In this document: positions 707 through 60,564 of the stretch, one piece after another
How the letters are laid out: the number at the start of each line of letters is the position of its first letter
Position numbering within the stretch: position 1 is the stretch's first letter
From: a virus
IMG/VR virus record: IMGVR_UViG_3300028844_006119
Location: 32,001-96,000 of that record
Direction: 5' to 3' (one strand)
Length of the DNA stretch: 64,000 nucleotides
The notes under the pieces: model-generated
Told to the model about the DNA's origin: nothing
Database searches by the model: none
What the model saw: only the letters and a program-made list of their open reading frames with translations
Program-made: the position numbers and the translations under genes

Positions 707-713
707 GAGTCTC

Positions 714-968
714 ATGAGCGACAAACACAGTCTTTTCCAGAGATCCCCGGAGGCCCTTCTCAGTGAAGGTGCCGAGCGATCTAACGTGGCCGTCACCAAT
801 CAGATGCTGGACGACTTGTTCTCCAGAAGAGATGTGATGGGGAAGAAGGCGTATTCCCAGCTCCGCTCCCTGTTCACGGGCAAGGAGCACTATGGGCGCA
901 ACACTCGCCTCGGCATGTCCGCGAATGAATCCTCTAAGCTCGTAAATCGGGCCTTTAGTGGTGAGTAG
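714..968 (+). CDS. Hypothetical protein (84 aa)
   Basis: ATG at 714 just after the previous stop; fills the gap before the sigma gene. Confidence 0.55.
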   Translation: MSDKHSLFQRSPEALLSEGAERSNVAVTNQMLDDLFSRRDVMGKKAYSQLRSLFTGKEHYGRNTRLGMSANESSKLVNRAFSGE

Positions 969-1791
969 CCTGAGAGATAGGCTGCAGAAGATCGCAGCGA
1001 AGGACCCCTACGAGTTTCCCAAGACGTGGGGCACCAAGGATCGCAAGACAGGTGAGGTTACCCCTTTCTACGGTAAAGCCGCGAAAGAGGTAACTATGTG
1101 GAGGACATGGAAGGAGTCCGGGGAAGATCCCGACCACCTTGCCCCTCTTCTCCAGTCTCTAAATCCTGTGATCAACAGTAATGTTCTGCGCCACCGCGCC
1201 CCACGCATTCACAAGCCGGTGATAGAGGCCGAGGCTCGAACTCTCACCGTGAAGGCACTGCGGAGGTACAACCCCTCTCGGGGGACCATGGTCTCCTCCC
1301 ACGTACACAACAATCTGAAAGGTCTGAACCGCTTTGTAAAGAAGCACCAGAACTTCACACGCATCGTGGAGACTCAGGCCAATAAAATTGGTGATTACGA
1401 CAGGGCAAAATCCTCGTTGGCAGAGGAGCTGGGCAGGGACCCAACTACCTTAGAGATCTCGGACAGAATTAAGTTGTCCCCGAAGAAGGTGGCGCGTCTC
1501 GAGAAGGAGCTCCGTAAGGACAAGTTCTCTGCACTGCCCTCTGACGATATGATCAGTGCCAACCCTTTCGAGAAGACGCTCCCTGAATCCCGAGAGATCA
1601 TTGAGATGCTCCCCTACGAGCTCACAATGAACGAGCAGGCGGTGTTCAACCACCTGTACGGGCGTGGCGGCTTTCGCAAGGACCGGATGACCAAAAGTAT
1701 CGCCAAGAAGTTGGGCTGGTCGGAGTCCAAGGTATCGCAAGTAAAGAACTCCATTATCAAGAAGTACCACGCGTACGAGGACTCTTTTTAA
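958..1791 (+). CDS. Sigma70-family (FliA/SigF-like) RNA polymerase sigma factor
   Basis: Region 2 KALRRYNPSRGTMVSSHV; region 3 LAEELGRDPTTLEISDRI; region 4 LTMNEQAVFNHLYG...IAKKLGWSESKVSQ (HTH). Start is GTG 958 or 961. Confidence 0.88.
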   Translation: MVSSLRDRLQKIAAKDPYEFPKTWGTKDRKTGEVTPFYGKAAKEVTMWRTWKESGEDPDHLAPLLQSLNPVINSNVLRHRAPRIHKPVIEAEARTLTVKALRRYNPSRGTMVSSHVHNNLKGLNRFVKKHQNFTRIVETQANKIGDYDRAKSSLAEELGRDPTTLEISDRIKLSPKKVARLEKELRKDKFSALPSDDMISANPFEKTLPESREIIEMLPYELTMNEQAVFNHLYGRGGFRKDRMTKSIAKKLGWSESKVSQVKNSIIKKYHAYEDSF

Positions 1792-2275: not shown

Positions 2276-2279
2276 CCCC

Positions 2280-2356: not shown

Positions 2357-2360
2357 TACC

Positions 2361-4154: not shown

Positions 4155-4175
4155 GTAGAACGGTTGCTCAAAGTG

Positions 4176-4211
4176 AAGCCCCCAGCAGGTTCTCCTGCTG
4201 GGGGCTTTCTT
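4176..4211 (+). terminator. Rho-independent terminator
   Basis: Perfect 14-bp stem AAGCCCCCAGCAGG-TTCT-CCTGCTGGGGGCTT followed by TCTT, 21 nt after the stop at 4154. Confidence 0.85.
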
Positions 4212-4286
4212 GCTCCGGGGGCTCCGGGGTGCTACTGTAATAAAGGCACCCTACTTCTGCACAAAGTGTAACGGAGCACCCATAGA

Positions 4287-8576: not shown

Positions 8577-8578
8577 GT

Positions 8579-9648: not shown

Positions 9649-9659
9649 GGAAAATTTCC

Positions 9660-44889: not shown

Positions 44890-46266
44890 CTATATTTGTT
44901 GTTTGGGTCTCCAGTCTCTTTTGACTCGATATCCGTTCCTTTTTGCTTCGTTGACGAGGGAGTAGATCATCCCTCTACAGAGGTCTACGTTGCTGTCCAG
45001 GAACAGGAAAACTGCAGGCGGCTTCTTACTGGGGTGCTCCCGAAGAATCCTCCCCACGCTCTGCTGAAACGTAATGGCAGAGTGCGCCCTTGCCGCAAAG
45101 GGGGTGACCAGCAGGAGCGTGTCGAGATCCTTACGGTTGTACGCCTCTTTGCCCACCCCTATAGTCGCGAACACCAGGTCCGAGCCATTCAGCTGATCCA
45201 GCCTATCGCCGGACTTTGTACCTCCGTGAATCAACGTGCTTCTGGGGTACCTCGCATGAAGCTCCTTCACATGTTCTACGCCGTGAGACAGGACGTAAGT
45301 AGTCCGGCCCTGATCCTTACAGTCCTTGAGGACCAGGTCTATTAGGGAGTTTCTGGCCCCGTTCTTGCCTAAAACGCCCCTCATCAGGCCCACGTTGATC
45401 TGGCCTGCTTTGTCGATCATCCCCCTATTCTCTTTGTCTGTGTACATGACCCCGGTGTCTACGAGGTAGACGGTGGGGACAAGATCCTGAGTGGTGTCGC
45501 TGAAGAACACGTTGCCCAGATGAGAGAAGAAGATCCCCTCGCATCTGTCCGTCCGGTTTGGGGTCGCACTCAGTCCAATGCGCTTCCCTATGCAGATATC
45601 GGCCGCGTTAGAGAAAAACTCTGCCGCCATGCAGTGACATTCGTCGTAGATGACTAGCCCAAATCGGCTCAGAAACTCAGCAGACGTTCTACCGTCCTGA
45701 ACTCTTCGGGCCAAGGTCTGTACCGTGGAGAGGCATATGTCTGCCTCGTACTCGAACTTTTTACCTTGAATCCATCCGATGCTCCCGGAGTGGTCGAAGA
45801 ACTGATTGAGCTCGTTGAGCCAGTTTTCCAGGTGGGCCTTCTGCGGAGATACAATCAGGGTCGGAACCTTTTCATGGCTGGCCTTCAGCCACCCTAGGAC
45901 GGTCTTGCCTTTACCGCAGGCCAGGTTCAGAATGCCTCCGTCCGACTTCTTTAGTGCTTCCCATGCCTCCGCCTGGTTGGGCCGCAGAGAAAATGAGGTC
46001 TTTGGGCTGAGGGAGATTGAAGGGAAAGAAGTAGGGCGAGCATCGATTACGGGGCATCCCATAGAGGAGAGCTGGCTGCTACTCAGTGCGCTTCGAGGAA
46101 CCTCATAGTGCGCGGGGTGTTCCTTGACCAGGACTCGGGGAGTCCCAGCAGAGTCCTCCCCAAACCGTAGAGTCCCTCGAAGCACCTTCCCTTGAATGTG
46201 ACTCTTCGGTAGGAACAGGGACCTCGCAATATAGGCGGAGCCCTCCTTCATCGGCAGTAGTTTCAT
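44890..46266 (-). CDS. Superfamily 2 DExH helicase (UvsW/XPB-like)
   Basis: LRPNQ, CGKGKT, DECH, LSATP, QQSVGRILR. Confidence 0.9.
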   Translation of the reverse strand: MKLLPMKEGSAYIARSLFLPKSHIQGKVLRGTLRFGEDSAGTPRVLVKEHPAHYEVPRSALSSSQLSSMGCPVIDARPTSFPSISLSPKTSFSLRPNQAEAWEALKKSDGGILNLACGKGKTVLGWLKASHEKVPTLIVSPQKAHLENWLNELNQFFDHSGSIGWIQGKKFEYEADICLSTVQTLARRVQDGRTSAEFLSRFGLVIYDECHCMAAEFFSNAADICIGKRIGLSATPNRTDRCEGIFFSHLGNVFFSDTTQDLVPTVYLVDTGVMYTDKENRGMIDKAGQINVGLMRGVLGKNGARNSLIDLVLKDCKDQGRTTYVLSHGVEHVKELHARYPRSTLIHGGTKSGDRLDQLNGSDLVFATIGVGKEAYNRKDLDTLLLVTPFAARAHSAITFQQSVGRILREHPSKKPPAVFLFLDSNVDLCRGMIYSLVNEAKRNGYRVKRDWRPKQQI

Positions 46267-48727: not shown

Positions 48728-49689
48728 TTTCCAGCGGCTCCCTCTTTTTCTTCAGCGACGAAATACAAAAGTGTGCAGGCATGCCTGCGCCTCAGCAAGC
48801 GCAGCAACCTGAGAAGAAACAGAGCTTTCTCTCCAGGAACAAGATGACTTTGGGAGCCGGCGCTCTTGCCGCAGGGATGATCCTAAAGAACCCCCAGGCA
48901 GCCTCCAAGTACCTGGGCCAAGTGAAGCAGATGGTCACTAACCCTAAGGCAGCCCTTCAGCGTGGCTGGAGATCTGGCTCATCCAACATCACCGGCAAGG
49001 TCCCCGGGGCCTCCGAGTCGGCGTCCAAGAGAGTCAGACTGTACAAGGACGTCTTAAGCTCGGCCGAGCAAGGCAAGCTTCAGTCCGTCAAATCCCTCGA
49101 CACTATTGGCGCGGGGGGAACTTCTGCGAGAGCTTCGGGCTGGGGAAGCGCGGGTAGGTCGTTCAGTAGAGCAGGACAAGAGCTAAAGATGTCCCCCGAT
49201 CTCACTAAGAGAGTGGGAGACATGCAAGCCAAGCTCAAGGCCGGAGAAGAAGTCTCAGAGCAAGCCTTGAAGGGCCTTTATGCTGAGATTCAGGGTGCTG
49301 GAAAGGGCCTTAAGATGAGGAAGGGCCTGTCGTACTATGCCCCTGGAGAGCGTACGATGATGACAGGTCTGGGCACAGGTCTGGGGGCAACGGCGGGCCT
49401 TGAGACCCACGATGCGGAAACAGGACGCAAGAGGGGCGTGGCGGAGCGAGTTGCTCGCGGGACTGTCGGTGCTGCGACTGGCACCGCGATGTCCTCCCTA
49501 TTCATGGGACGAGGCGCAAGGCTCAGCAGCAAGAACTTATTCACAGGAAATAGAGGCTCTCTGCTCAGCCAAAAGGGACTTCTGCCAGTCGCGGCAACGA
49601 CTCCCCTACTGGTGGGTACTGAGGCCGCTGGGGAGGTCGCGGGGAAGGGCGGAGAGCTGGCCGACAGAGCCTTTGGACAGAAATCATGA
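48724..49689 (+). CDS. Basic Gly/Ala-rich KxA-motif protein (putative virion cargo)
   Basis: FFSDEIQKCAG leader; LGAGALAAG, GLGTGLGATAG, GTVGAATG segments. Confidence 0.6.
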   Translation: MISSGSLFFFSDEIQKCAGMPAPQQAQQPEKKQSFLSRNKMTLGAGALAAGMILKNPQAASKYLGQVKQMVTNPKAALQRGWRSGSSNITGKVPGASESASKRVRLYKDVLSSAEQGKLQSVKSLDTIGAGGTSARASGWGSAGRSFSRAGQELKMSPDLTKRVGDMQAKLKAGEEVSEQALKGLYAEIQGAGKGLKMRKGLSYYAPGERTMMTGLGTGLGATAGLETHDAETGRKRGVAERVARGTVGAATGTAMSSLFMGRGARLSSKNLFTGNRGSLLSQKGLLPVAATTPLLVGTEAAGEVAGKGGELADRAFGQKS

Positions 49690-51788
49690 ACGTAGTTTCT
49701 AGCGAATCAAACCGATTCAACCCGCGCCCTGTCGACTATGAGGGTGGCCGGGGCTTCGGCATTCGCTACCCGTCCCCCTTCTTCGATGTCGCGCAGCAGT
49801 TTCTTCCGTCCGACGTACACCAGCTCCATCACTGGTGTCGGTACTACTTTCTGACCAACCCGGTTATCAACGCTGCCTGCTCCAAGATGGCGGAGTACCC
49901 CGTCACTCCTCTCGTCTTTGAGACGGAAGACCCCAAGCTGGTAGAGCTGGGCAAGTCCCTAGAAGATCAGCTAAAGCTGCGATCTTTTCAGGTTGAAGTC
50001 GGACTAGACTACTTTGTCTACGGAAATGCGTTCATCTCGCTGTTCTTCCCGTTTGAGAAGTACCTCCTCTGCCCGAAGTGCAAGGAGCGTTACCGCGCCA
50101 GCAAGAACCGCTTCAGATACAAGTGGCGGAGCGGTCGCTTCTATCTGAAGGAGTGCAAGTGCGGGTACCAGGGGTACGCGAAGCAGCAGGATGTCTACAT
50201 CCGCAGCGCGCGCGACATTCGCCTGGTTCGGTGGAATCCAGAGAACGTCAACATCAAGTACAACGAGATCACAGGTAAGGCGAAGTACTACTTCAAGCTG
50301 CCTCGAGCGATCGCCAACGATATCAAGTTGGGCGACGCGGACACGATCGAGACGCTACCCCTTGAGTTCCTAGAGGCTGCCCGTAAGAAGAAGTCCCTCC
50401 TGTTTACTCAGGACAACCTCTATCACTTGAAGCGTCCGACGATTGCCCAGAAGGATCAGGGCTGGGGCACTCCCCTGATCTACCCCTTGCTGAAGGACGC
50501 GTTCTACCTGCAGGTCATGAAGAAGGCGAACGAGGCGGTCCTCATGGAACACATCGTTCCTATGAGGATACTCTTCCCTGGGCAGAGCACGGGCGGGAAT
50601 GAGGGTCCATACGGATCCTATAACCTGAGCAACTGGAAAAAGAAGGTAGACGCTGAGATCAACATGTGGCGTCGGGACCACAACTACATCCCAGTTCTGC
50701 CCGTGAACGTCGGGTTCCAGCAGATCGGCGGACAGGGCCGAGCCCTTCTGATGTACCAGGAGATGCGTCTTCTTTCGGAGCAGATGCTCGCGGGCGCAGG
50801 AATCCCTGTCGAGTTCATCTTCGGCGGGCTTCAGTGGAGCGGGTCCAGCACCTCCCTCCGGGCTCTGGAGAACATGTTCCTGGGGTACAACAAGCAGCGC
50901 CATGAGCTCGTAAACAAGTTCATCGTGGAGAAGGTTTGCTCCTTCATGCGTTGGCCCAAGATCTCGGTGCGCTTTGACAAGTTCAAGATGGCCGACGATC
51001 TGCAGAGAAGCATGTTCTACCTGCAGCTCAACCAGGCGCAGAAGGTCAGTGACCGCAGGCTGCTTGAGGAGATCGGAGAGAACTTCGATCTCGAGAACGA
51101 TCGCATGATGTCCGAGCTAAAGAAGAACCTTCAGACGCAGCGCACCATGCAGGTCGCCGGTGCTGACGTTCAGGGAGAGATCCAGCTTCGCACTTCCCGG
51201 TACCAGGCTAAGTCTCAGTCCCTAATGGCGAAGGCACAGGCCGAAGTCCAGATGGAGATGCAGAAGAAGCAGCTGGAGATGCAGCAGCAGATGCAGCAGC
51301 AGGTGCAGCAGGGTGCAAACCCTCAACAGGTTCAGGCGGCGCAGCAGGCGGCGCAGCAACAACAAGGCGCAGCAGCACAGGCCGCCCCGCAAGGTCAGGC
51401 TCAGCAGGGCGGAGGTCAGGCTCAGCAGACTCCCGGTATGCCGGACGGGGCCACCGCGTACGATGAGAACGCGAAGTCTCCTAACGACACGGGGATGCCC
51501 GCAGCTATGGCGGGTATGACTTCTCAGATCCAGCAGGGAGCTGGAGGAGTAGACCTTCGATACATCGCCCAGAGAGCCGCGGCGTTCTTGAAAACGGTCA
51601 AGAAGGAGCAGGGCCCTGAGGCCATGTACAAGTCTTTGGCCGAGATGCAAACCGGCAATCCGAATCTCTATCAGCTGGTTGTCCAGCTATTGAACGATAC
51701 AGGATCTAAGGAAAATCCCCAGAACGCCCAGGCGGCCCCCAAGCCTAACGGGAATCCGCAAGCGGATATTTCCCGTCAGGTGGGGTAG
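49686..51788 (+). CDS. Portal protein
   Basis: YFLTNPVINAACSKMAEY, DYFVYGNAF, YHLKR...GWGTPLI, AGAGIPVEFI, V.FDK; Gln-rich C-terminal tail. Confidence 0.8.
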   Translation: MNVVSSESNRFNPRPVDYEGGRGFGIRYPSPFFDVAQQFLPSDVHQLHHWCRYYFLTNPVINAACSKMAEYPVTPLVFETEDPKLVELGKSLEDQLKLRSFQVEVGLDYFVYGNAFISLFFPFEKYLLCPKCKERYRASKNRFRYKWRSGRFYLKECKCGYQGYAKQQDVYIRSARDIRLVRWNPENVNIKYNEITGKAKYYFKLPRAIANDIKLGDADTIETLPLEFLEAARKKKSLLFTQDNLYHLKRPTIAQKDQGWGTPLIYPLLKDAFYLQVMKKANEAVLMEHIVPMRILFPGQSTGGNEGPYGSYNLSNWKKKVDAEINMWRRDHNYIPVLPVNVGFQQIGGQGRALLMYQEMRLLSEQMLAGAGIPVEFIFGGLQWSGSSTSLRALENMFLGYNKQRHELVNKFIVEKVCSFMRWPKISVRFDKFKMADDLQRSMFYLQLNQAQKVSDRRLLEEIGENFDLENDRMMSELKKNLQTQRTMQVAGADVQGEIQLRTSRYQAKSQSLMAKAQAEVQMEMQKKQLEMQQQMQQQVQQGANPQQVQAAQQAAQQQQGAAAQAAPQGQAQQGGGQAQQTPGMPDGATAYDENAKSPNDTGMPAAMAGMTSQIQQGAGGVDLRYIAQRAAAFLKTVKKEQGPEAMYKSLAEMQTGNPNLYQLVVQLLNDTGSKENPQNAQAAPKPNGNPQADISRQVG

Positions 51789-52048
51789 CGCAGCATGGGG
51801 AGATCTATGCCCGCAGGGAACTTCAGCGGATCCCCGGCCCCTGAGGGGTACAGGTACGCAAGGATTTCCCTGGAGTTGTCTATTAGGCATCTTTCGTGGA
51901 AGATCGGCTCTTGGTCTCCTGAGTCGAAGTAGGTCTCCGATACGGTGTACCTCTTTGGCCTCCTCCCCACCTCATACCTGGACAGGCTGACCATCTTCTC
52001 ATTCTCTACGATCTGGGCCGTGCACCAGTCGCACTTGAATCTATCCAT
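51776..52048 (-). CDS. Small Zn-finger protein
   Basis: CDWC...HERC. Confidence 0.6.
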   Translation of the reverse strand: MDRFKCDWCTAQIVENEKMVSLSRYEVGRRPKRYTVSETYFDSGDQEPIFHERCLIDNSREILAYLYPSGAGDPLKFPAGIDLPMLRYPT

Positions 52049-52352
52049 CGACGATGGCCAGCATCAGTACTCCGCTCTCATACCCGCAGATTTCGCATTT
52101 ACCGTTGCCGTAGTAAGGCTGTAGGATGAGACCCTCGGTGCAGGTCGAGCAGACCCACAAGTAGTCCCCAAACGCATTATCGATAAGAGAGCATGTCTCA
52201 CACGCCACATCACTACAGAGGCTTTCGGCCAAGGGACAGTACGCCGTATGTATCGGCTCGTCCCTCTGCTTCTTCTCTGTCGGGACCGCCGGGGCATCTA
52301 AAGAGAAGCCGGAGGGCCGGGCAAAAAGCCCGGCCCTCCTCTTCTTACTCAC
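52041..52352 (-). CDS. Small Cys-rich protein
   Basis: CETC, CSTC, CEIC plus other Cys. Confidence 0.55.
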   Translation of the reverse strand: MSKKRRAGLFARPSGFSLDAPAVPTEKKQRDEPIHTAYCPLAESLCSDVACETCSLIDNAFGDYLWVCSTCTEGLILQPYYGNGKCEICGYESGVLMLAIVDG

Positions 52353-52452
52353 CGTCGAGCTCGTCTAGCTCAGCGAGCGCGTCCTTCAGGACGCGCTCGC
52401 TCTGCTGCATCAGCCCCACCACGAAGGCGAGGCCGAATAGCCCCACGACCAC
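52345..52452 (-). CDS. 35-aa peptide with hydrophobic N-terminus (not in ORF track)
   Basis: Hand translation MVVGLFGLAFVVGLMQQSERVLKDALAELDELDGE; GGAGG upstream; overlaps both neighbours. Confidence 0.45.
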   Translation of the reverse strand: MVVGLFGLAFVVGLMQQSERVLKDALAELDELDGE

Positions 52453-52535
52453 TACGCCTCCCGAAAGAGGCGGTCAACCTCTTCTTGTGGGGTCTCGGGG
52501 GTCGGGGTCTCAGTCTCGTCAGCTGTATAGATCAT
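52452..52535 (-). CDS. 27-aa acidic peptide (not in ORF track)
   Basis: AAGGAG RBS; hand translation MIYTADETETPTPETPQEEVDRLFREA. Confidence 0.45.
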   Translation of the reverse strand: MIYTADETETPTPETPQEEVDRLFREA

Positions 52536-52546
52536 TCTTCACTCCT

Positions 52547-52584
52547 TTTTGGTCGGGCTATGTCCCGACCAAAAGAGTTATGAC
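52547..52584 (-). promoter_or_regulatory. GTCATAA motif plus 11-bp hairpin in the divergent gap before the RNAP gene
   Basis: TTTTGGTCGGG 52547-57 / CCCGACCAAAA 52564-74; TTATGAC 52578-84. Confidence 0.55.
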
Positions 52585-52605
52585 TCGTAAACAATAAGGA
52601 TTCAC

Positions 52606-55600
52606 ATGGCAAACCTGGCTCCAGGGGACGCATACCGCCTCCTCGAAGAAAGAACCAAAGAAGCCATCAAGAGTCACTTCCCGGTCGAAGGCCGAGAAAA
52701 CAGACTCGAGTTGGTAGATATTTCCACGGATGAGGATGCCTCCTCTGCGTCTGGAAAGCACCACAGCTACAACCACACGTCTCAGACGGACGCAAAGCTC
52801 CATGACAGAACATGGGGTCCCAACATCGTAGGGACGTTCCGGCTCGTAAACATGGAGACGGGTAAGGTCGTAGACCAGGGGAAGCGCACCCTGGGCCAGC
52901 TGCCTAAGATCACCAGTCGGTACAGCTACATCGTTGAGGGGAACGAACGTCAAGTCGACAGCGTCTTCCGCCTTAACCCCGGCGCCTATCACGTAGAGGC
53001 CGACAACGGAGATCTTCTTGCGAAGTGGAACGTCGCCGCAGGATCCAAGGTTGGTTCGTTCAAGATCTCCATTGAGCGTAAGCATCCCAAGAAACTGGGG
53101 GCCATGTACCTGATTGTGAAGAGTGGCACGCAGTCTACTCGCAAGATCCCGGCGTACGGAATCCTCTCCGCCCTGGGAGTATCCGACCCTGCTATGCGCA
53201 AGGCGTGGGGAGAATCCGTATTCGAGGTAAACCGCAGGATCTCCAAGCCCAACGACCTTCTAAACTTTCACGAAGCGGTGGAGAAGCGCCGAGCGGGCAA
53301 GGATAAGTACGAGACGCCTACCCTCTCCGAGGCCCGCAAGTTTGCGAAGGAAGTCTTCGAGGGCGCAGAAGTAAACCCCGATACGATGCTTGCTACGCTG
53401 GGCAAGAAGTTCACCAACATCTCTGGGGACGCTCTCCTGGCCTCCTCGGCCAAGGTGGTGGGAATTAGCAAGGGGACCGCGGAGCCTGACGACAGACAGT
53501 CTCTCTCCAACAAGCGCCTCTTCGGGATGGAAGATTTCATCCACGAGGAGATCTCTAAGGGATCGTCTCGGTTCGAGATGCAGAAGAAGATCCGGAACAA
53601 CCTCGATCGTAAGGGCAAGATCTCAGACATTCTTCCGGCTGCGTCCGTGGGGTATGGGAGGCTGATCACGCGCAAGTTCAAGGCTGCCCAACTTCCGACC
53701 CAGACAAATCCCCTTCAGTTCGTGTCTAACCACACGAAGACGACCATTCTCGGTCAGGCGTTTGGCGGAATTAAGGGAGACAATGTCAACCTTGATCGAG
53801 ACAAGCTGATCAATCCCTCTCACTTGGGGCTGCTTGATCCTCTGCAGACACCAGAGAACACCTCTACCGGCGTCTCGCTGCACATCCCAATCGGGGCCAA
53901 TAAGAAAGGTCAGCAGCTTTACACAAAAGTCCTGAACGTAAAGACCGGGAAGTTCGAGAATAAAAACGCAGCGGAGATGGAGAAGGCCGTCGTTGCATAC
54001 CCCGACCAGGTGAAAATCACCCGCACGAAGACCGGAGCCACAGTCCGGCCCCTGCACCCCGACGTTGTCGTCTATGACTCAGACCGCAGCACGGCCAAGA
54101 GGCCCTGGAAGGACGTCCAGTACGTTCTTCCCAACGCAAAGACACTATTCTCGGTTAGCGCAAACATGATCCCGTTCGTTCAGAACGACAACGGGAACCG
54201 AGCCATGATGGCCGCTAAGCACCAGGAGCAAGCAGTCTCTCTGAAAGACCGAGAAGCCCCGCTGGTTCAGGCTGAATTTGCGGGAGGGGTCTCATTCGAC
54301 CAGATGATCGGCAAGTTGAACTCTACTACCGCTAGTGTGGCCGGAACTGTGTCGAGAATCACCAAGGATTCTGTTTACATAAAGGGCGCGGCAGGAAAAG
54401 CGGTGTCCCACCCGATCTACAACCACCATCCCCTCAACGGCACGAAGCACATGATGCATTCGACTCCGGTTGTGAAGGTGGGAGACAAGGTAAAGGTTGG
54501 ACAGCTCATCGCCGACTCTAACTTCACCAAGGACGGCACCCTATCCTTGGGTACGAATCTTCGCGTCGGGTATCTGCCGTACAAGGGCTACAACTTTGAG
54601 GACGGGACCGTCATCTCGGAGACTGCCGCCAAGAAGTTGGTGTCCACCCATCTCCACATCGAAGAAGCGGAGATGTTCGCCAACGTAGTCGTAAACAGGA
54701 AGCTGTGGAGAAACTTCGCTGGGGCCAACAAGGCCACGGCAGAAGTGATGAGCAAGCTGGACGAGGATGGCGTCATCAAGGAGGGAGCCAAGGTAGTTCC
54801 CGACGATGTGTTGATCACTCGGCTGGTCAAGGCGGAGATGACTCGAGAGAACCAGGACGTCAAGAGGTCCCTGAAGAAGGCTATCCGGGACTACAAAGAC
54901 GCCGCAGTGGTCTGGAAGCATGAGTACGGCGGCACTGTCGTTCGAGTCGTCAAGACTGCGAAGAAGATCCAGGTTCATATCCGCACTGAGCAGACAATGG
55001 AGCCCGGAGATAAGCTGTCGGGGCGTCACGGTAACAAGGGAATCATCACCAAGATCCTGCCTGACGATATGATGCCCAAGGATAAGAGCGGGAAGCCCGT
55101 CCATGTCCTGATGAGCCCCGCAGGCGTCCCATCCCGTATGAATGTCGGGCAGGTCCTGGAGACGGCTGCAAGTAAGATTGCCCGCAAGACGGGAAAGTCG
55201 TACAAGATCGAGAACTTCGATGCCTCCGTTGATTACTCCCAGAAGATTAAGGATGAGCTCAAGAAGCACAATCTTTCCGATACGGAGGAGCTTTTCGATC
55301 CCGAAACCGGAGAGTCTCTCGGGCAGATCTTTACGGGTGAGCAGTACATGCTCAAGCTGGACCACCAGGCCGAAAAGAAGGTGTCTGCCCGATCTGGAGG
55401 ATCTGGGTATGCCTATCGGCCCACCGGCGAGGCAATCTCCGGTTCGGGCATCGGGAAGGGCGGGCAACGAATTGGTGGCCTAGACACCTACGCTCTGCTG
55501 GCACACGGAGCCAAGAGAAATCTGATGGAGATGCAGACCTACAAGTCTGACTCCGAGCAGGCCCGGGATGTCTGGATTCGGGTGATGCAGGGACAGCGTC

Positions 55601-58600
55601 CGCCTCCCCCCAAGGTCCCTACCTCGATGGAGCACTTCAAGAAGTACCTACGGGCTACGGGGGTCTATGCCGAGGAGACTGGCGGTGTGTACTCCCTGTC
55701 TCCCATGACGGATGCTCAGACCCTAGGGCAGAGTAAAGGCGCGCTCGTAGCGGCGGATAAGACGCTGGTGGCAAAGGGGATGCTCACCAAGGAAGAAAAG
55801 GGCGGCCTGTTTGATAGGGGCAAGACCGGAGGCATGGAGGGCAAATTCTGGTCCCACATCGACATGAAGACCCGGATGCCCAACCCAATGTTTGAGACCG
55901 CAATCCAGTCTCTGCTCGGCCTAAAAAAGGCGGAGTTTGAAAAGCTGGTCTCCGAAAACGGAGCCGTGGGGAAGAAGTCCGGGTTCCAGATCATTGAGGA
56001 GCGTCTGCGCGCCATCAAGGTTCCCTCCGAGCTAAAGAAGGCGGAAGAGGAGCTGAAGACCGCTAAGAAGGCGGACCTCAACAAGAAGTACAAGAAGGTC
56101 CGGTATCTTCGCGCGCTGAAGGAGCTCAAGACCTCTCCGGTAGACGCCTATACGAACCAGCATCTCCCAGTGCTGCCTCCCATCTTGAGGCCGGTAAAGA
56201 TTGGATACGACGGCACACAGATGATTGATGCCGCGAATCAGTACTACGCCATGATCGGCCAGATGACCAAGCAGGTAGAGCAGGGGAAGAAGGAGGGGCT
56301 GCCGAAGGCCGACATCTTCAAGAGAGAAGCGCAGCTATACGACCTGGTCCGTGCGTTGCGCCTGAATGGCATGACTCAGGAAGGCAGGGAGCTTCCCAGT
56401 CTGATGGACAAGATGACGGGCTCGAAGCCCAAACACTCATTCTTTCAGCAGGGTGTTCTGTCGAAGCGGCAGGACTTGTCGGGCCGGACGGTCGTTACCC
56501 CAGAGCCCGCATTGAAGATGGACCAGGTGGGCATCCCTGTCGATATGGCGATGGAGACGTACAAGCCGTTCGTCATCAGAGAGCTGTGGCGTCGTATGGG
56601 AATCGCCAAGAGCCCTGGCGAAGCAAGACGCATGATCAAGAAGAACCACCCCTCCGCCAAGAAAGCGTTGGAGAGGGTGATTACTCAGCGTCCAGTAATC
56701 ATGAAGAGAGACCCTGCGCTTCATATGTTTTCTACTATGGCCTTCAAGCCAGTTCTTGTGCCGGGGAAGTCGATCAAGATCCACCCACTTGTGTGCGGCG
56801 GCTTCAACGCGGACTTCGATGGCGACACCATGGCCATGTATGTGCCCGTGACTGAGGAAGCTGCGGAGGAGGCCCTGGAGAAGATGCTCCCGTCTAAGAA
56901 CCTGTTTTCCCCCACACACGGGGGCCTCATGTTGACCCCCAGCCAGGATGCCGTTCTCGGCATCTACCAGGCTACAAAGTGGGGCAAGAAGGTTCCTGGA
57001 ATCCTTACGGAGGAGCAGGCGCTTCAGCAGCTGAAGAACGGAAAGTTGAAGTCTGACAACGTCATCACGGTCAAGGGCCACAAGAAGCCTACGACTGCGG
57101 GAAGACTGCGGATCAACAAGACCCTGCCCGGCAGCGTAAAGAATGATCCCGAGCTTCTATACGATCCCAAATTCCGCATGGCCAAGGGCGCTATGAAGGG
57201 ATTCGCAACTCGAGTAGCCCAATCCGATCCGGATGAGTTCTCCGGCATGATCGACGGATGGAAGGAGTTGGGGTTCACGCTGTCATATAAGAACGGTAGT
57301 TCGTTCAGCCTGAATGATTTTCACGACGGTAAGACCATCCGAGACAACGTCCTGAAGAAGTACAAGAAGGAAGAGAATGTGATTCGCAAGTCTGGTATTT
57401 CTCGTAAAAAGAAGGACCAGAAGATTATCGCCCTGTACCAAAAAGCAGGCGAGGAACTCAAGGTTATCGGGCAGGCCCACTACAAGGCTAAAAAAGACAA
57501 CCGTATGTGGGAGTGGGCTGAAAGCGGTGCGCGAAGCAACTGGGGCCAGTTCGGTCAGTTGGTCATGGGGCCCATGCTTGTGCAGAACCCCTCCAAGGAG
57601 TTTGTGCCTGTACCGCTCACTACCTCGTTTGGGGAGGGGCTCCCGATCTCTCAGTACTGGGCAGCGCTGCATGGCGCCCGAAAGGGAACCCTGGATCGCG
57701 CAGCAGGAACTAGAGACCCCGGAGCGCTCACCAAGGAGTTGATCAACACAGTCATTGCGTACTCTGTGACCGACAAGGACTGTGGTACTTCCAAGGGCAC
57801 TCTGATGTCCGTCATGGCGAAGGACATCGAGGGCAGGTACCTGGCGCGCGAGGTGCCCCTGAAGAGCGGGGACAAACTGACCCGTGGAACCCTGGTCAGC
57901 TCGGCATTGTTGACCAGGATGAAGAACTCCGGCCCCCAGAAGGTCCTGGTGCGCTCCCCTCTTCACTGCCAGCAGGCAACGGGCATTTGCGCCACTTGCT
58001 ATGGGCTTAACGAGAGAGGAACTCTCTACAAAAAGGGAACCAACGTTGGCATCATTGCCGGCCATGCCCTCGGAGAGCCAGTCACTCAGATGCAGATGCG
58101 GACGTTCCACACGGGCGGCGCCGGAACCGACGGGCTGACGGATTACTTCCAGCAGGCAAAGGACCTCTTCAAGGTGCCCGAGAAGCTACGAGGTGCCGCT
58201 ACGTTGGCGGAGGTCACCGGCAGGGTAGATAAAATCGAGACGGATGCCCTTGGCGGTAAGAAGGTCACGATTGGCGGAAAGCTGCACGTTGTCCCCCACT
58301 CGACCCCACTCCTCCCGAAGATTAGGGTCGGGGCGGACGTGAAGAAGACAGACGCGCTCTCTGTTGGTCGGAAAAATCCGCACGACATCCTTCGGATCTC
58401 CAACAACATCCATGCTGTCCGCAATCACCTCACGACAGAGCTAGACTCTCTGTACGTAGAGACTACGGGGAACGAGAGGCGGAGGAACATCGAGACGGTG
58501 ATCCGTGCGATGACCGATGTTGCGCAGGTGACCGAAAGCTCTGAGCACGAGAACCTGCTCAATGGGCAGATGATGTCTCTTTCCCGGATTGAGAACAGGA

Positions 58601-58944
58601 ACAAAGAGCTGAAGAAGTTGGGACTCCCCACCATCCAGCACAAGCCTCTGCTGAAGCCTATGGACAAAGTCCCGCTTTCCGGTAAAGAAGACTGGATGGC
58701 GCGACTAAACTTCCAGAGGCTTAAGGACACCCTTATCGAGGGCGGGGCACAGAACTGGAAGTCAGATATCCAGGGTCACCCCATCCCAGGCCTGGCGCAT
58801 GGTGCGGCGTTTGGACTGCAAGCCCCAAAGACCGCAGCCATAAGCTCCCCTTTCCCCAAGCCCCCCAAACCTGTTAAACTTCCGGCACCTGTGCCTGCCG
58901 CCCCGCAGGGCATCTTCGGGTCCTTCTTTGGAGCAAAGTCATGA
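52606..58944 (+). CDS. rpoBC: Fused beta-beta' (RpoB-RpoC) DNA-directed RNA polymerase, single 2112-aa chain
   Basis: Beta motifs QTPE, NRAMM, GYNFED, GDKLSGRHGNKG, PSRMNVGQ, YMLKLDH, GGQRIG; beta' motifs LPVLPPILRP, KRQDLSGR, NADFDGD (56806-56826), PSQD, HGARKG, RSPLHC, CATCYG, GEPVTQMQMRTFHTGG; no internal stop. Confidence 0.96.
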   Translation: MANLAPGDAYRLLEERTKEAIKSHFPVEGRENRLELVDISTDEDASSASGKHHSYNHTSQTDAKLHDRTWGPNIVGTFRLVNMETGKVVDQGKRTLGQLPKITSRYSYIVEGNERQVDSVFRLNPGAYHVEADNGDLLAKWNVAAGSKVGSFKISIERKHPKKLGAMYLIVKSGTQSTRKIPAYGILSALGVSDPAMRKAWGESVFEVNRRISKPNDLLNFHEAVEKRRAGKDKYETPTLSEARKFAKEVFEGAEVNPDTMLATLGKKFTNISGDALLASSAKVVGISKGTAEPDDRQSLSNKRLFGMEDFIHEEISKGSSRFEMQKKIRNNLDRKGKISDILPAASVGYGRLITRKFKAAQLPTQTNPLQFVSNHTKTTILGQAFGGIKGDNVNLDRDKLINPSHLGLLDPLQTPENTSTGVSLHIPIGANKKGQQLYTKVLNVKTGKFENKNAAEMEKAVVAYPDQVKITRTKTGATVRPLHPDVVVYDSDRSTAKRPWKDVQYVLPNAKTLFSVSANMIPFVQNDNGNRAMMAAKHQEQAVSLKDREAPLVQAEFAGGVSFDQMIGKLNSTTASVAGTVSRITKDSVYIKGAAGKAVSHPIYNHHPLNGTKHMMHSTPVVKVGDKVKVGQLIADSNFTKDGTLSLGTNLRVGYLPYKGYNFEDGTVISETAAKKLVSTHLHIEEAEMFANVVVNRKLWRNFAGANKATAEVMSKLDEDGVIKEGAKVVPDDVLITRLVKAEMTRENQDVKRSLKKAIRDYKDAAVVWKHEYGGTVVRVVKTAKKIQVHIRTEQTMEPGDKLSGRHGNKGIITKILPDDMMPKDKSGKPVHVLMSPAGVPSRMNVGQVLETAASKIARKTGKSYKIENFDASVDYSQKIKDELKKHNLSDTEELFDPETGESLGQIFTGEQYMLKLDHQAEKKVSARSGGSGYAYRPTGEAISGSGIGKGGQRIGGLDTYALLAHGAKRNLMEMQTYKSDSEQARDVWIRVMQGQRPPPPKVPTSMEHFKKYLRATGVYAEETGGVYSLSPMTDAQTLGQSKGALVAADKTLVAKGMLTKEEKGGLFDRGKTGGMEGKFWSHIDMKTRMPNPMFETAIQSLLGLKKAEFEKLVSENGAVGKKSGFQIIEERLRAIKVPSELKKAEEELKTAKKADLNKKYKKVRYLRALKELKTSPVDAYTNQHLPVLPPILRPVKIGYDGTQMIDAANQYYAMIGQMTKQVEQGKKEGLPKADIFKREAQLYDLVRALRLNGMTQEGRELPSLMDKMTGSKPKHSFFQQGVLSKRQDLSGRTVVTPEPALKMDQVGIPVDMAMETYKPFVIRELWRRMGIAKSPGEARRMIKKNHPSAKKALERVITQRPVIMKRDPALHMFSTMAFKPVLVPGKSIKIHPLVCGGFNADFDGDTMAMYVPVTEEAAEEALEKMLPSKNLFSPTHGGLMLTPSQDAVLGIYQATKWGKKVPGILTEEQALQQLKNGKLKSDNVITVKGHKKPTTAGRLRINKTLPGSVKNDPELLYDPKFRMAKGAMKGFATRVAQSDPDEFSGMIDGWKELGFTLSYKNGSSFSLNDFHDGKTIRDNVLKKYKKEENVIRKSGISRKKKDQKIIALYQKAGEELKVIGQAHYKAKKDNRMWEWAESGARSNWGQFGQLVMGPMLVQNPSKEFVPVPLTTSFGEGLPISQYWAALHGARKGTLDRAAGTRDPGALTKELINTVIAYSVTDKDCGTSKGTLMSVMAKDIEGRYLAREVPLKSGDKLTRGTLVSSALLTRMKNSGPQKVLVRSPLHCQQATGICATCYGLNERGTLYKKGTNVGIIAGHALGEPVTQMQMRTFHTGGAGTDGLTDYFQQAKDLFKVPEKLRGAATLAEVTGRVDKIETDALGGKKVTIGGKLHVVPHSTPLLPKIRVGADVKKTDALSVGRKNPHDILRISNNIHAVRNHLTTELDSLYVETTGNERRRNIETVIRAMTDVAQVTESSEHENLLNGQMMSLSRIENRNKELKKLGLPTIQHKPLLKPMDKVPLSGKEDWMARLNFQRLKDTLIEGGAQNWKSDIQGHPIPGLAHGAAFGLQAPKTAAISSPFPKPPKPVKLPAPVPAAPQGIFGSFFGAKS

Positions 58945-59363
58945 ACAAGATCGCCGCATACGAAATCGCACTCGAGAGAATCGAACTTGAGAAGCGGGCT
59001 GACTCCCTGGTGGAGGCCTACGGCACCAGTGAGGGCTACATGCCGGGTGCCTACCTTCAGGCGTTTGATCAGATCGAGAAGGAAGCCGGAATCCAGGCTA
59101 TCGCAAATATCGGGAGCCGCCTCTCAACAGCGGCGCGAGGCACCATTAAAGGGATGATGGGGAGCGGCGGGGCAGTAGTCCGAAAGGGCGGGAAGATGCA
59201 GCTTAGCAGGGGAGCCGGACTTGGGGACACGGCTAAGTACTACGGAGCTCGAGGCGTGCAGCGCGCGGGAAGATTCGCCATGCAGAATCCCGGCGCGACT
59301 GCAGCTGTTGGCGGGGTCGGAGGTGTCGGAGCTGCCGGCCTCGGGTACAAGGCTCTGAAGTAG
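58941..59363 (+). CDS. KxA-motif glycine-zipper protein (putative virion cargo)
   Basis: MNKIAA, LEKRAD, FDQIEKEAG; C-terminal AAVGGVGGVGAAGLG. Confidence 0.65.
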   Translation: MNKIAAYEIALERIELEKRADSLVEAYGTSEGYMPGAYLQAFDQIEKEAGIQAIANIGSRLSTAARGTIKGMMGSGGAVVRKGGKMQLSRGAGLGDTAKYYGARGVQRAGRFAMQNPGATAAVGGVGGVGAAGLGYKALK

Positions 59364-59364
59364 A

Positions 59365-60564
59365 ATGCCCGCACCCGTCTCCCCAGCAGCGCCTTCTCCG
59401 GCATTGATCCTCCAAGGGCGCATCTCTGAAGTAGATGCGCCCCGGTGGCTATGCAAGGTGCGGGTTGACGGGAGAGACGATGATGTGACCACGACCATCC
59501 CATCTGTGTACTCTCATCCGATGAACGGGGAGGGGATCCACTTCTTGCCGGAGGTTGGAGCGTTTTGCTACGTCTGCTTTAGCTCCGACAAGAAGACCAT
59601 CCCCTTCCTGCTTTCTGCTGGAGCCGCAACGGTGCCGAAGGATCGGTCTTCATCCGAAGGCCTTCCCGGGTCGATGGATATGTTCCGTCCCCTCCTGACC
59701 GCAGGGGACATTGCCCTTCTCACTAGAGACGGCAACGGCCTTACCCTGCGCAGAGGAGGAGTGACGGAACTCAAGGGCACGTCCCTGGCTAAGATCGTGT
59801 TCAACCCGACGATGAACCAGGTGTTCACCATCGCTGAGAACTACCGGGTCCAGACGTTTGGAGGATCTACTGAGTGGAAGAACCTCCGACGCGAGGAAAA
59901 CCCAGATGGCCAGGTCAGGACGCGGCTCTCTACTGTGGTCAAGGAGTACGCCACCTCCAAGGGCTACAGTGTCCGTCTCCAGATGGGTGCCACTGAGGGA
60001 GCGCCTGTTGCGCTTCAGGGCGACGATTCGGCAGAGAAAGCGCCGGACAAGGTGGTGGAAGAGTCGGAAGCTGTGACGCTCTCCGGTACAGGAGATACAT
60101 ACACGGTCACGGTGCCCAAGTCTGTTCCGCTGCTGGACAGCACTAGGGTTGTGGACTTCAGGATCTACGAGGACGAGACGGTCGCTGAAGATGCGCTAGA
60201 GGTAGTGATGAATCTCGGCATGGACCGAGAAGGAGACATCCAACTCGAGACCGATGGCGCTATGAAGATCGACGTGCCCAAGAAGTGGGTGGAGATTGTC
60301 GTTGGAGGCAGCACTCCGTTTATCAATACGGAAGCGGCAGGGGCGCAGAAGGTACTGGTAACTACTGGGACACAGGGCAACACTGAGCCGGTGATCAAGG
60401 GATTCGCATTCCTGTCAGATCTTGCGGCCTCTCTGACCGAGATTAAGACGGCCCTGAACGGGCTCGGCATTCCGACTGTCTCGACGGATGCCCTATTGGC
60501 AAACATCCTTACTTCTGTGGCGGACGGAGCTCCATATCTGTCTACTACTCTGGAGAGTGAATAA
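59365..60564 (+). CDS. Baseplate central spike (gp5/gpV-like OB fold)
   Basis: GRISEVD...CKVR...FLPEVGAFCYV OB-fold pattern, followed by beta-rich repeats. Confidence 0.7.
   Translation: MPAPVSPAAPSPALILQGRISEVDAPRWLCKVRVDGRDDDVTTTIPSVYSHPMNGEGIHFLPEVGAFCYVCFSSDKKTIPFLLSAGAATVPKDRSSSEGLPGSMDMFRPLLTAGDIALLTRDGNGLTLRRGGVTELKGTSLAKIVFNPTMNQVFTIAENYRVQTFGGSTEWKNLRREENPDGQVRTRLSTVVKEYATSKGYSVRLQMGATEGAPVALQGDDSAEKAPDKVVEESEAVTLSGTGDTYTVTVPKSVPLLDSTRVVDFRIYEDETVAEDALEVVMNLGMDREGDIQLETDGAMKIDVPKKWVEIVVGGSTPFINTEAAGAQKVLVTTGTQGNTEPVIKGFAFLSDLAASLTEIKTALNGLGIPTVSTDALLANILTSVADGAPYLSTTLESE

What the first reader, a model, noticed from the sequence alone, without database searches (positions are those of the whole stretch)
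52606..58944. Single-chain, minimal bacterial-type beta-beta' RNA polymerase inside a phage head module
Seen: beta and beta' motifs lie in cellular order in one 2112-aa ORF. The junction PTSMEHFKKYLRATGVYAEE|TGGVYSLSPMTDAQTLGQSKG (~55620-55740) joins the beta C-terminus to the beta' N-terminus with almost no linker. Known: E. coli beta plus beta' is about 2750 aa; phiKZ/AR9 polymerases are split and very divergent; cellular fusions (Helicobacter, Wolbachia) sit in ribosomal-protein operons. This enzyme keeps near-cellular motifs, has no alpha gene in the window, and sits between the portal and spike genes. Inference: a virion-packaged, possibly alpha-independent RNAP of a distinct phage class.
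Basis: partly seen in the sequence, partly recalled or inferred. Interest (0 to 1): 0.9.

Follow-up and report, generated by a model that had tools for sequence, protein, structure and literature searches.

The report
Single-chain phage RNA polymerase beside portal
A marine phage of about 185 kb encodes both large subunits of a bacterial-type RNA polymerase as one 2112-residue protein next to its portal gene. The enzyme belongs to a large, barely described phage family that also carries its own sigma factor and probably ships the enzyme inside the virus particle.

Summary
An independent sample holds the whole frame under purifying selection (184 nt changes, 29 aa changes, no indels).

It is not a one-off:
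- At least 648 clusters at 50% identity carry the same junction.
- 59 of 66 full-length IMG/VR relatives are single-frame.
- The nearest cultured relatives, Salmonella phage Arash and Vibrio phage D69, share the junction but split beta' further on.

The enzyme is a bacterial core without the lineage-specific insertions of E. coli and without the beta' N-terminal zinc ribbon. All catalytic residues are kept, and the rifampicin pocket is rebuilt.

The genomes also tell a consistent story:
- No alpha or omega gene was found in the complete relatives searched.
- There is one RNAP locus per genome.
- A sigma70-family gene (window 958..1791) co-occurs in 8 of 8 genomes.
- Its Arash orthologue gp10 and the Arash RNAP are abundant in virion proteomics.

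Best reading: a sigma-dependent, alpha-free, virion-delivered RNAP. Packaging and alpha-independence are inferred, not shown.

This scan found the same family earlier on other DNA (e1-5632060, e1-3265288, e1-3435475 and others).

The parts
52606..58944 (+). Single-chain beta-beta' RNA polymerase gene (2112 aa)
   Evidence: Uninterrupted ORF. Pfam and NCBIfam find beta and beta' domains in order. An independent contig carries the same frame.
52606..55677 (+). Beta module (residues 1-1024). It lacks E. coli beta 1-26, SI1 (226-347), SI2 (934-1045) and 1126-1179.
   Evidence: Alignment with Salmonella beta. K803, K811 and H920 align with beta K1065, K1073 and H1237.
55006..55041 (+). Beta active-site motif GDKLSGRHGNKG (residues 801-812)
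   Evidence: Motif scan across the family and mapping to beta K1065/K1073.
55618..55740 (+). Beta / beta' junction (...YAEE | TGGVYSL...), no linker
   Evidence: It is collinear with Arash gp206. A 171-aa probe across it finds 648 clusters at E<=1e-10. An identical contig from another study spans it.
55834..55839 (+). Site where the beta' N-terminal zinc ribbon (E. coli beta' 66-97, Cys70/72/85/88) is deleted
   Evidence: Alignment. The deletion is shared by all 11 family members shown and by Arash and D69. The ribbon segment is present in all 12 bacterial rows; one of them (the CPR fusion L024) has part of the cysteine motif replaced.
56188..56397 (+). Beta' clamp helices (residues 1195-1264), the predicted docking site for sigma region 2
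   Evidence: Aligns with the clamp helices of solved beta' chains. It is the interface in the complex prediction.
56806..56826 (+). Catalytic NADFDGD (residues 1401-1407)
   Evidence: D1403/1405/1407 align with beta' D460/462/464.
57781..57999 (+). Second zinc site retained (C1726, C1788, C1795, C1798)
   Evidence: Aligns with beta' C814/C888/C895/C898. Nearly invariant in the family.
958..1791 (+). Sigma70-family factor (277 aa), the proposed specificity subunit of the phage RNAP
   Evidence: Pfam Sigma70_r3 E 2.3e-8, over the cut-off; NCBIfam FliA/WhiG-like over residues 98-269. Orthologues in Arash (gp10), D69 and 5 of 5 near-complete relatives.
49686..51788 (+). Portal protein gene (700 aa)
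   Evidence: 30% identity to Arash gp204 and to the D69 homologue. The AF2 model matches T4, lambda and HK97 portals. A homologue lies upstream of the RNAP gene in 56 of 65 related loci.
52311..52339 (.). Strong bidirectional stem-loop (12 pairs, 11 of them G-C) between the portal and RNAP genes
   Evidence: Terminator scan and sequence.
58941..59363 (+). 140-aa gene whose ATG overlaps the RNAP stop codon (ATGA)
   Evidence: Sequence and translation.
59365..60564 (+). Spike / baseplate-hub-like protein (399 aa)
   Evidence: Phage_base_V OB domain E 3e-4. The AF2 model matches eCIS, R2 pyocin and VgrG spikes. A homologue lies downstream of the RNAP gene in 41 of 63 related loci.

Best explanation
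The gene encodes the complete catalytic core of a bacterial-type RNA polymerase in one chain. The beta C-terminus is joined directly to the beta' N-terminus, which makes the clamp module contiguous in sequence.

Proposed mechanism:
1. The core binds the phage's own sigma70-family factor (window 958..1791) through the retained beta' clamp helices.
2. It works without alpha or omega.
3. It is made late together with head and tail proteins and packed into the capsid.
4. It is ejected with the DNA and transcribes phage genes from phage-specific promoters, without the host polymerase and insensitive to rifampicin.

Shown here: the intact fused ORF, the conserved catalytic residues, the clade-wide architecture, the absence of alpha and omega genes, the single RNAP locus per genome, and the sigma co-occurrence.

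Inferred: sigma binding, packaging, alpha-independence, rifampicin insensitivity and promoter specificity.
For: Catalytic competence:
- All key residues align with E. coli (beta K1065/K1073/H1237; beta' DFDGD; Zn2 cysteines).
- A variant from another sample has 184 nt changes but only 29 aa changes.

Architecture is clade-wide:
- 59 of 66 full-length IMG/VR loci are one frame.
- 648 clusters at 50% identity carry the junction.
- At least 120 clusters at 90% identity are 2040-2120 aa.

Separate lineage:
- Family plus Arash/D69 form one clade (support 100), separated from 29 bacterial rpoB+rpoC pairs by a branch of 1.56 changes per column.
- All NCBIfam equivalogs score below their cut-offs.

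No alpha or omega:
- PF01193 absent from the record, Arash, D69 and 5 near-complete relatives; PF01000 absent from the record and those 5.
- PF01192 absent from the 5 relatives.

One RNAP locus per genome.

Sigma:
- Orthologues in 8 of 8 genomes.
- They sit on the same contigs as the RNAP.
- The clamp helices are kept.
- Complex prediction of RNAP 1021-1440 with sigma: ipSAE 0.74 against a best control of 0.00. That mark was reached by 58 of 80 solved complexes and 2 of 110 mismatched pairs. The runs share at least 56% of contacts and the partner's pLDDT is at least 71. The interface is the clamp helices against sigma 82-99. This is a textbook pair, so the pass shows likeness to solved holoenzymes, not that this copy binds.

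Packaging:
- In Arash virion LC-MS, Gp206 has 128 unique peptides and 3516 spectra, the most of any protein.
- Gp216 has 40 peptides and 1210 spectra; sigma Gp10 has 24 peptides and 467 spectra. Probable contaminants have 2-3 peptides (PMC10585845).
- The gene lies between the portal and spike genes and is ATGA-coupled to the next virion-block gene.

Rifampicin pocket: V146, S512-F514, D516, H526, R529, S531, A532, I572 and R687 are invariant or nearly so in 11 bacterial sequences. All are replaced or deleted in the window enzyme, and most are across the family.

Candidate promoters: TAA[AT]-N17/18-CATAA occurs 9 times on one strand and 0 on the other, against 0.47 expected. Eight of the nine lie 29-60 nt before an ORF.
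Against: - No direct evidence on virions of this phage.
- The Arash preparation yielded 116 'virion' proteins, including ribonucleotide reductase and kinases, so carry-over of abundant cytoplasmic proteins is possible. The authors say so themselves.
- A strong terminator and a minus-strand ORF separate the portal and RNAP genes, so the RNAP gene is not simply part of the portal transcript.
- Host alpha or omega could still be recruited. This cannot be tested here.
- The record is only 77% complete, so a missing alpha or a second sigma in this particular genome is not excluded.
- The RNAP has no copy of the leader motif that earlier notes propose as a capsid-targeting signal.
- The sigma could instead serve the host core enzyme.
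Confidence: 0.65

Rival explanations
1. The enzyme is a non-virion polymerase. Host RNAP transcribes the RNAP gene after infection, and the phage enzyme then runs middle and late transcription, as T7 RNAP does. On this reading its presence in Arash virion preparations is carry-over.
For: The Arash proteome lists 116 proteins, including metabolic enzymes, and the authors raise this possibility. The RNAP gene is set off from the portal gene by a terminator and could have its own promoter. There is only one RNAP per genome, whereas phiKZ-type phages use a separate non-virion set.
Against: Gp206 has far more unique peptides (128) than any probable contaminant (2-3), and more spectra than the major capsid protein. 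The gene sits between virion genes and is translationally coupled to one. The portal-RNAP-spike order is kept over 30-80% sequence identity. The orthologous sigma also lies in a structural block and is found in virions.
Confidence: 0.2
2. The single chain is only the catalytic part. It needs the host alpha dimer (and omega) for assembly, as tethered E. coli beta-beta' does, so it is not self-sufficient.
For: The sequence is close to cellular cores over almost its whole length. Cellular beta-beta' fusions still use alpha (own knowledge: E. coli tethering experiments, Helicobacter).
Against: A virion-delivered enzyme would have to carry host alpha. No alpha-like gene was found in any of the 8 genomes searched. 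phiKZ/AR9 polymerases work without alpha (PMC7598289). The long branch to bacteria leaves room for changed surfaces.
Confidence: 0.25
3. The phage sigma redirects the host core polymerase, as T4 gp55 or SPO1 gp28 do. The phage RNAP would then use some other, unknown initiation factor.
For: Many RNAP-less large phages encode sigma factors for the host core (PMC7598289, PMC7824862). The complex prediction cannot tell phage core from host core.
Against: Sigma and RNAP co-occur strictly in 8 of 8 genomes and on the same contigs. Both are found in Arash virions. The clamp helices are retained.
Confidence: 0.12
4. The gene is a recently captured host rpoB-rpoC, bacterial contamination of the contig, or an assembly chimera that joins two genes.
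For: Identity to bacterial beta and beta' is about 30%, with very low E-values.
Against: It is not nested in any of 8 or more sampled phyla and sits on a long separate branch. It scores below every NCBIfam cut-off. The zinc-ribbon deletion and the junction are shared clade-wide. It is flanked by portal and spike genes. The frame is confirmed in independent samples. No close relative was found among the best 80 matches in 185,579 species genomes.
Confidence: 0.02

Closest known systems
RNA polymerase of Salmonella phage Arash (gp206 + gp216, with sigma gp10) and of Vibrio phages D69/D148/D181
   Same: The beta-beta' junction is the same and has no linker. The zinc-ribbon deletion is the same. 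The RNAP gene follows the portal gene in the same way. The sigma is orthologous. No alpha gene is present. Genomes are about 180-187 kb. In the tree they are sister to the window's family.
   Different: Identity is only about 30%. Arash and D69 cut beta' near window residue 1497 into a second gene of 606-609 aa, placed 0.6-5 kb away; the window has everything in one chain. Arash has virion proteomics, the window phage has none. The published work names the genes but does not analyse the enzyme.
phiKZ / AR9 multisubunit phage RNAPs (virion and non-virion sets)
   Same: Phage-encoded two-barrel RNAPs related to beta and beta', without alpha or omega. One set is packed in the virion for early transcription (PMC7598289).
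   Different: Those are split into 4-5 polypeptides, come as two paralogous sets, are very divergent and have no sigma70-family factor. Here there is one chain, one locus per genome, near-cellular sequence and a sigma70-family partner.
Cellular beta-beta' fusions (Helicobacter and Wolbachia types, NCBIfam NF007172 and NF011417; also a Ca. Paceibacterota MAG, locus L024)
   Same: Beta is joined to beta' in the same order in one ORF.
   Different: The cellular fusions are about 2840-2890 aa by the NCBIfam models (the CPR one is 2284 aa). The CPR example keeps the zinc-ribbon segment, has a short linker and groups with other CPR bacteria in the tree. The window protein scores 558 bits against the cut-off of 5372, so its fusion is independent.
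Single-chain virion RNAPs of crAss-like phages (phi14:2 gp66) and Thermus phage P23-45 (fused to the tape measure protein)
   Same: One polypeptide holds both barrels, is virion-delivered and transcribes early genes (bioRxiv 10.1101/2020.03.07.982082; PMC10770324; listed).
   Different: Those are so divergent that only the DxDxD motif is recognisable, and they lack the beta and beta' accessory domains and a sigma. The window enzyme aligns with bacterial beta and beta' almost end to end.
N4 virion RNAP (functional analogue)
   Same: The polymerase is packed in the capsid and injected to start infection (PMC4496689, listed).
   Different: N4 vRNAP is a T7-like single-subunit enzyme of an unrelated fold.

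Membership tests
Bacterial-type two-barrel RNAP catalytic core (beta/beta') | Beta' barrel with NADFDGD and beta barrel with the two catalytic lysines | tested here: met
   D1403/1405/1407 and K803/K811 align with E. coli beta' D460/462/464 and beta K1065/K1073.
Bacterial-type two-barrel RNAP catalytic core (beta/beta') | Bridge helix, trigger loop, clamp helices and second zinc site | tested here: met
   Pfam Rpb1_5, motif scan, clamp-helix alignment, and C1726/1788/1795/1798.
Cellular bacterial RpoB / RpoC (NCBIfam equivalogs) | Score above the curated cut-offs | tested here: not met
   rpoC scores 513 against 963.5, and rpoB scores 405 against 896.
Cellular bacterial RpoB / RpoC (NCBIfam equivalogs) | Beta' N-terminal zinc ribbon (Cys70/72/85/88) | tested here: not met
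   A 32-residue deletion removes all four cysteines.
Cellular bacterial RpoB / RpoC (NCBIfam equivalogs) | Alpha dimer and omega encoded alongside | tested here: not met
   PF01193 absent from the record, Arash, D69 and 5 near-complete relatives; PF01000 absent from the record and those 5; PF01192 absent from the 5 relatives. Use of host alpha cannot be tested.
Cellular bacterial RpoB / RpoC (NCBIfam equivalogs) | Branches within Bacteria | tested here: not met
   It forms a separate clade on a branch of 1.56 changes per column from 29 bacterial sequences. There is no outgroup and long-branch effects are possible.
Arash/D69-type phage RNAP | Direct beta-beta' junction and loss of the zinc ribbon | tested here: met
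Arash/D69-type phage RNAP | Portal gene upstream and orthologous sigma in a structural block | tested here: met
Arash/D69-type phage RNAP | Beta' C-terminal third encoded by a separate gene | tested here: not met
   The window ORF runs on through residue 1497. 59 of 66 related loci are also one frame.
Arash/D69-type phage RNAP | Present in purified virions | not testable with these tools
   Known only for Arash (PMC10585845).
phiKZ/AR9-type phage multisubunit RNAP | Beta and beta' split into 4-5 polypeptides, in two paralogous sets | tested here: not met
   One chain and one locus.
phiKZ/AR9-type phage multisubunit RNAP | No sigma70-family factor in the genome | tested here: not met
   A sigma gene lies at 958..1791 and in all relatives searched.
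Helicobacter/Wolbachia-type cellular fused RpoBC | Score above the NF007172 / NF011417 cut-offs, and location in the ribosomal-protein operon | tested here: not met
   558 bits against 5372, and 507 against 4632. The neighbours are portal and spike genes.

The most novel reading that the evidence does not exclude
The single chain plus the phage sigma would be a complete two-protein holoenzyme of bacterial type. It would need no alpha or omega, would be insensitive to rifampicin, would be packed in the capsid and would pass through the tail to start infection. That would make it the simplest self-sufficient sigma-dependent RNA polymerase known. It would also belong to a lineage that split from bacterial enzymes before or at the base of the sampled bacterial phyla, rather than being a recent capture.
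Probability: 0.4. Interest if true: 0.85.

Novelty: new variant of a known kind. Interest (0 to 1): 0.7.

Why it matters
Every bacterial-type RNAP characterised so far needs an alpha dimer to assemble. The alpha-free phage enzymes known (phiKZ, AR9) are fragmented, highly divergent and lack a sigma. This family keeps an almost complete, alignable bacterial core and a sigma70-type factor, but puts the core in one chain with no alpha gene in sight.

If it is active on its own, three things follow:
- It is a natural minimal model for how beta and beta' fold and close the clamp without a scaffold.
- It shows what the beta' zinc ribbon is needed for.
- It shows how a 230-kDa enzyme is packed and ejected.

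It would also be a compact sigma-programmable polymerase for cell-free and synthetic biology.

The family is large (hundreds of clusters at 50% identity, genomes of 165-220 kb, common in marine metagenomes). Cultured members (Arash on Salmonella, D69 on Vibrio) make all of these questions directly testable. The reviews of phage RNAPs that I read (2020, 2021, 2026) do not mention it.

Tried and rejected
- PHROGs and Pfam gave no hit for nine neighbouring ORFs, the portal among them. Identity came from Arash homology and fold search instead.
- The '134-aa ORF' 52193..52597 is probably not a gene. It shows no similarity to Arash gp205, a terminator lies inside it, and a minus-strand ORF covers the region.
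- The window helicase 44890..46266 is not the orthologue of the virion-abundant Arash helicase gp217. No gp217 homologue is in the record.
- No sigma70-type promoter consensus lies upstream of or inside the RNAP gene region.
- The genome-contig scan returned only cellular rpoB/rpoC at 28-33% identity and no phage relative in a bacterial genome, so it gave no host clue.
- The look-up of sequencing runs: no RNA holder listed, so nothing can be said on expression.
- The leader motif proposed in earlier notes (F-x-D-E-[IVL]-x-K-x-A, or hydrophobic-x-K-x-A-[ASG]) is absent from the RNAP.
- A marine 'moraphage' lineage paper (PMC12619734) and the marine jumbo-phage survey (PMC9123017) turned out not to concern this clade.
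- No structure was predicted for the RNAP itself. It exceeds the 1200-aa limit, and the alignment already showed no insertion of 13 aa or more relative to bacterial cores.

Full report
**Observation.** The window lies at 32001-96000 of a 142,186-bp IMG/VR viral record that CheckV rates 77% complete, so the genome is about 185 kb.

ORF 52606..58944 (+) is a single frame of 2112 codons. Pfam finds beta domains (Rpb2_6, Rpb2_7) at 611-985 and beta' domains (Rpb1_2, Rpb1_3, Rpb1_5) at 1287-1857. NCBIfam hits every bacterial rpoB and rpoC model, and also the fused Helicobacter/Wolbachia models, but always far below the curated cut-offs.

I aligned the protein with Salmonella beta and beta', whose numbering equals that of E. 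coli (locus L091). The beta C-terminus ends at residue 1024 and beta' starts at 1025. Three beta residues and 15 beta' residues are missing and there is no linker.

The frame is not an assembly artefact:
- A contig of another study covers the whole gene with 184 substitutions and no indels. It encodes a 2112-aa protein with only 29 amino-acid differences.
- A contig of a third study is identical across the junction.

All four runs that I laid on the gene are marine or seawater metagenomes.

**Anatomy.** Relative to E. coli, the chain lacks:
- beta 1-26;
- the lineage-specific insertions beta SI1 (226-347), SI2 (934-1045) and 1126-1179;
- beta' 144-174;
- beta' SI3 (943-1131);
- the N-terminal zinc ribbon (beta' 66-97, all four cysteines). 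This loss is specific to the phage clade.

There is no insertion of 13 residues or more. The following are kept:
- the beta lysines and histidine (K803, K811, H920);
- DFDGD (1403-1407);
- the second zinc site (C1726, C1788, C1795, C1798);
- the bridge helix and trigger loop;
- the clamp helices and a flap-tip segment.

'Minimal' therefore means the conserved bacterial core minus one zinc element.

The rifampicin pocket is rebuilt. V146, S512-F514, D516, H526, R529, S531, A532, I572 and R687 are invariant or nearly so in 11 bacterial sequences. All are replaced or deleted in the window enzyme, and most are across the family. From the known resistance-determining region, I predict a rifampicin-insensitive enzyme.

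**Surroundings.**
- The upstream gene 49686..51788 is a portal. It is 30% identical to Arash gp204 and to its D69 homologue, and its AF2 model (pLDDT 72) matches only phage portals.
- An 817-bp gap follows. It holds a 12-bp G+C-rich bidirectional hairpin (52311-52339) and a minus-strand small ORF.
- The RNAP stop codon overlaps the start of a 140-aa gene (ATGA).
- That gene abuts a 399-aa protein with a gp5/VgrG-like OB domain, whose model matches central spikes of contractile systems.
- Further upstream lie replication genes on the minus strand: PolA, primase, DnaB, UDG and a RecA-like gene.
- At 9660-31674 lie giant ORFs, one of them with a Baseplate_J domain.

**Relatives.** The protein database holds at least 120 clusters at 90% identity. 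They are 2040-2120 aa long, 37-82% identical, and sit on contigs of up to 215 kb. Longer members carry intein and homing-endonuclease domains.

A 171-aa probe across the junction finds 648 clusters at 50% identity with E<=1e-10. All of the top 150 align across the junction.

In IMG/VR:
- 59 of 66 full-length loci are one frame, and 12 of these are of intein size.
- 7 are split.
- The portal homologue lies upstream on the same strand in 56 of 65 loci.
- The spike-like gene lies downstream in 41 of 63 loci.

The nearest cultured phages are Salmonella phage Arash and Vibrio phages D69, D148 and D181, at about 30% identity. They share the junction and the zinc-ribbon deletion. They cut beta' near residue 1497, in the same zone as the cyanobacterial rpoC1/rpoC2 split, into a separate gene of about 606-609 aa.

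A maximum-likelihood tree (53 rows, 1987 columns, LG+G4) puts the family together with Arash and D69 in one clade with full support. A branch of 1.56 changes per column separates this clade from 29 bacterial rpoB+rpoC pairs of at least 8 phyla. The tree has no outgroup, and treekit warns that long branches meet here. The result excludes a recent capture from a sampled phylum. It does not prove great antiquity.

**Partners.**
- PF01193 (alpha) is absent from the record, from complete Arash and D69, and from five IMG/VR relatives that are 91-100% complete. PF01000 (alpha) is absent from the record and those five.
- Omega (PF01192) is absent from those five relatives.
- Each genome has one beta' barrel locus, unlike phiKZ/AR9.

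It is a sigma70-family protein (Sigma70_r3 over the cut-off; FliA/WhiG-like over residues 98-269). Orthologues occur in Arash, D69 and all five near-complete relatives. They sit on the same contigs as the RNAP in the protein database. The Arash orthologue is gp10, which lies among structural genes.

I ran a complex prediction of RNAP 1021-1440 with the sigma:
- ipSAE was 0.74 against a best control of 0.00.
- That mark was reached by 58 of 80 solved complexes and 2 of 110 mismatched pairs.
- The runs share at least 56% of contacts, and the partner's pLDDT is at least 71.
- The interface is the clamp helices against sigma residues 82-99.

Sigma-core complexes have been solved many times. The pass therefore shows that the pair looks like a holoenzyme, not that it binds.

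**Packaging.** The only direct data are from Arash (PMC10585845).

| Protein | Unique peptides | Spectra |
|---|---|---|
| Gp206 (RNAP) | 128 | 3516 (most of any protein) |
| Gp216 (RNAP) | 40 | 1210 |
| Gp10 (sigma) | 24 | 467 |
| Gp204 (portal) | 32 | 877 |
| Gp226 (major capsid protein) | 30 | 1333 |

Metabolic enzymes mostly have 2-3 unique peptides (up to 14). The preparation listed 116 proteins, and the authors allow for carry-over.

The case for packaging rests on those counts, the conserved portal-RNAP-spike order, the ATGA coupling to a virion-block gene, and the single RNAP per genome. I consider packaging likely (about 0.7) but unproven.

**Promoters.** About 0.47 occurrences are expected by chance. 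Eight of the nine lie 29-60 nt before an ORF. All nine lie outside the window, in two clusters of small genes. They are candidates for promoters read by the phage holoenzyme.

**Literature.** Reviews of phage multisubunit RNAPs and of jumbo phages from 2020, 2021 and 2026 describe only the split, sigma-less phiKZ/AR9 type and the YonO type. Further full-text searches found no description of a fused, sigma-dependent type. The Arash paper names the genes and reports the proteomics, but does not note the fusion.

**Earlier findings of this scan.** Follow-up agents reached similar readings for relatives on other DNA. I reached mine independently, apart from the sigma and promoter leads.

**Verdict.** The enzyme is a real, functional-looking, single-chain bacterial-type RNAP of a large and essentially uncharacterised phage family. 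The fully fused form is the majority state in that family. The sigma partnership is well supported by genomics. Virion delivery, alpha-independence and rifampicin insensitivity are inferences that can be tested directly in the cultured relatives.

Noticed in passing
L024:163-7014 (Ca. Paceibacterota MAG, contig DATJQA010000074.1): A cellular rpoB-rpoC reads as one 2284-aa frame with a short linker. It keeps the zinc-ribbon segment and groups with other CPR bacteria in the tree. This is an independent bacterial beta-beta' fusion outside Helicobacter and Wolbachia.
   Followed up: partly
IMG/VR loci, e.g. L168:9986-20773, L130:9869-18535, L125:3255-9110, L117:2898-8702: Many relatives have RNAP frames of 2390-3596 aa, and the database hits of that size carry intein and homing-endonuclease Pfam domains. 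Several portal genes are 1070-1970 aa, which suggests that both genes are intein hot spots in this clade.
   Followed up: partly
Own record outside the window: 671-9786 and 100037-102812 (record coordinates), minus strand: There are nine copies of TAA[AT]-N17/18-CATAA on one strand and none on the other, against 0.47 expected. Eight lie 29-60 nt before small ORFs. They are candidate phage-specific (early?) promoters.
   Followed up: partly
window 58941-59363 (+): The 140-aa gene that is ATGA-coupled to the RNAP gene carries F-D-Q-I-E-K-E-A, which resembles the leader motif proposed in earlier notes, followed by a Gly/Ala-rich tail. The RNAP itself has no such motif.
   Followed up: partly
window 51789-52605: The gap between the portal and RNAP genes holds a 12-bp G+C-rich bidirectional hairpin (52311-52339) and a minus-strand ORF of about 62 aa (52536 down to about 52349) with a hydrophobic segment. 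The plus-strand '134-aa ORF' there is probably spurious.
   Followed up: partly
window 53689-53752 and nearby (RNAP residues 362-383; also 118, 424, 541): The rifampicin-binding residues, invariant or nearly so in the bacterial sequences, are replaced or deleted in the window enzyme and mostly across the family, Arash and D69. This predicts drug-insensitive transcription.
   Followed up: yes
L090:8419-11802 (Rhizobium phage RHph_TM30, Kleczkowskaviridae): A 207-kb T4-like rhizobiophage encodes a lone 1127-aa beta'-like protein, with no beta gene within 9 kb on either side.
   Followed up: no
window 9660-31674 (+): Four giant ORFs (2294, 799, 1645 and 2334 aa) lie in a row. Only one Pfam hit was found (Baseplate_J in the first). 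They are presumably baseplate or fibre proteins of unknown folds.
   Followed up: no
L001:20130-21548 (Arash gp217): A helicase encoded next to the Arash beta' C-terminal gene is as abundant in virions as that gene's product (38 unique peptides, 1148 spectra). It has no homologue in the window's record.
   Followed up: partly
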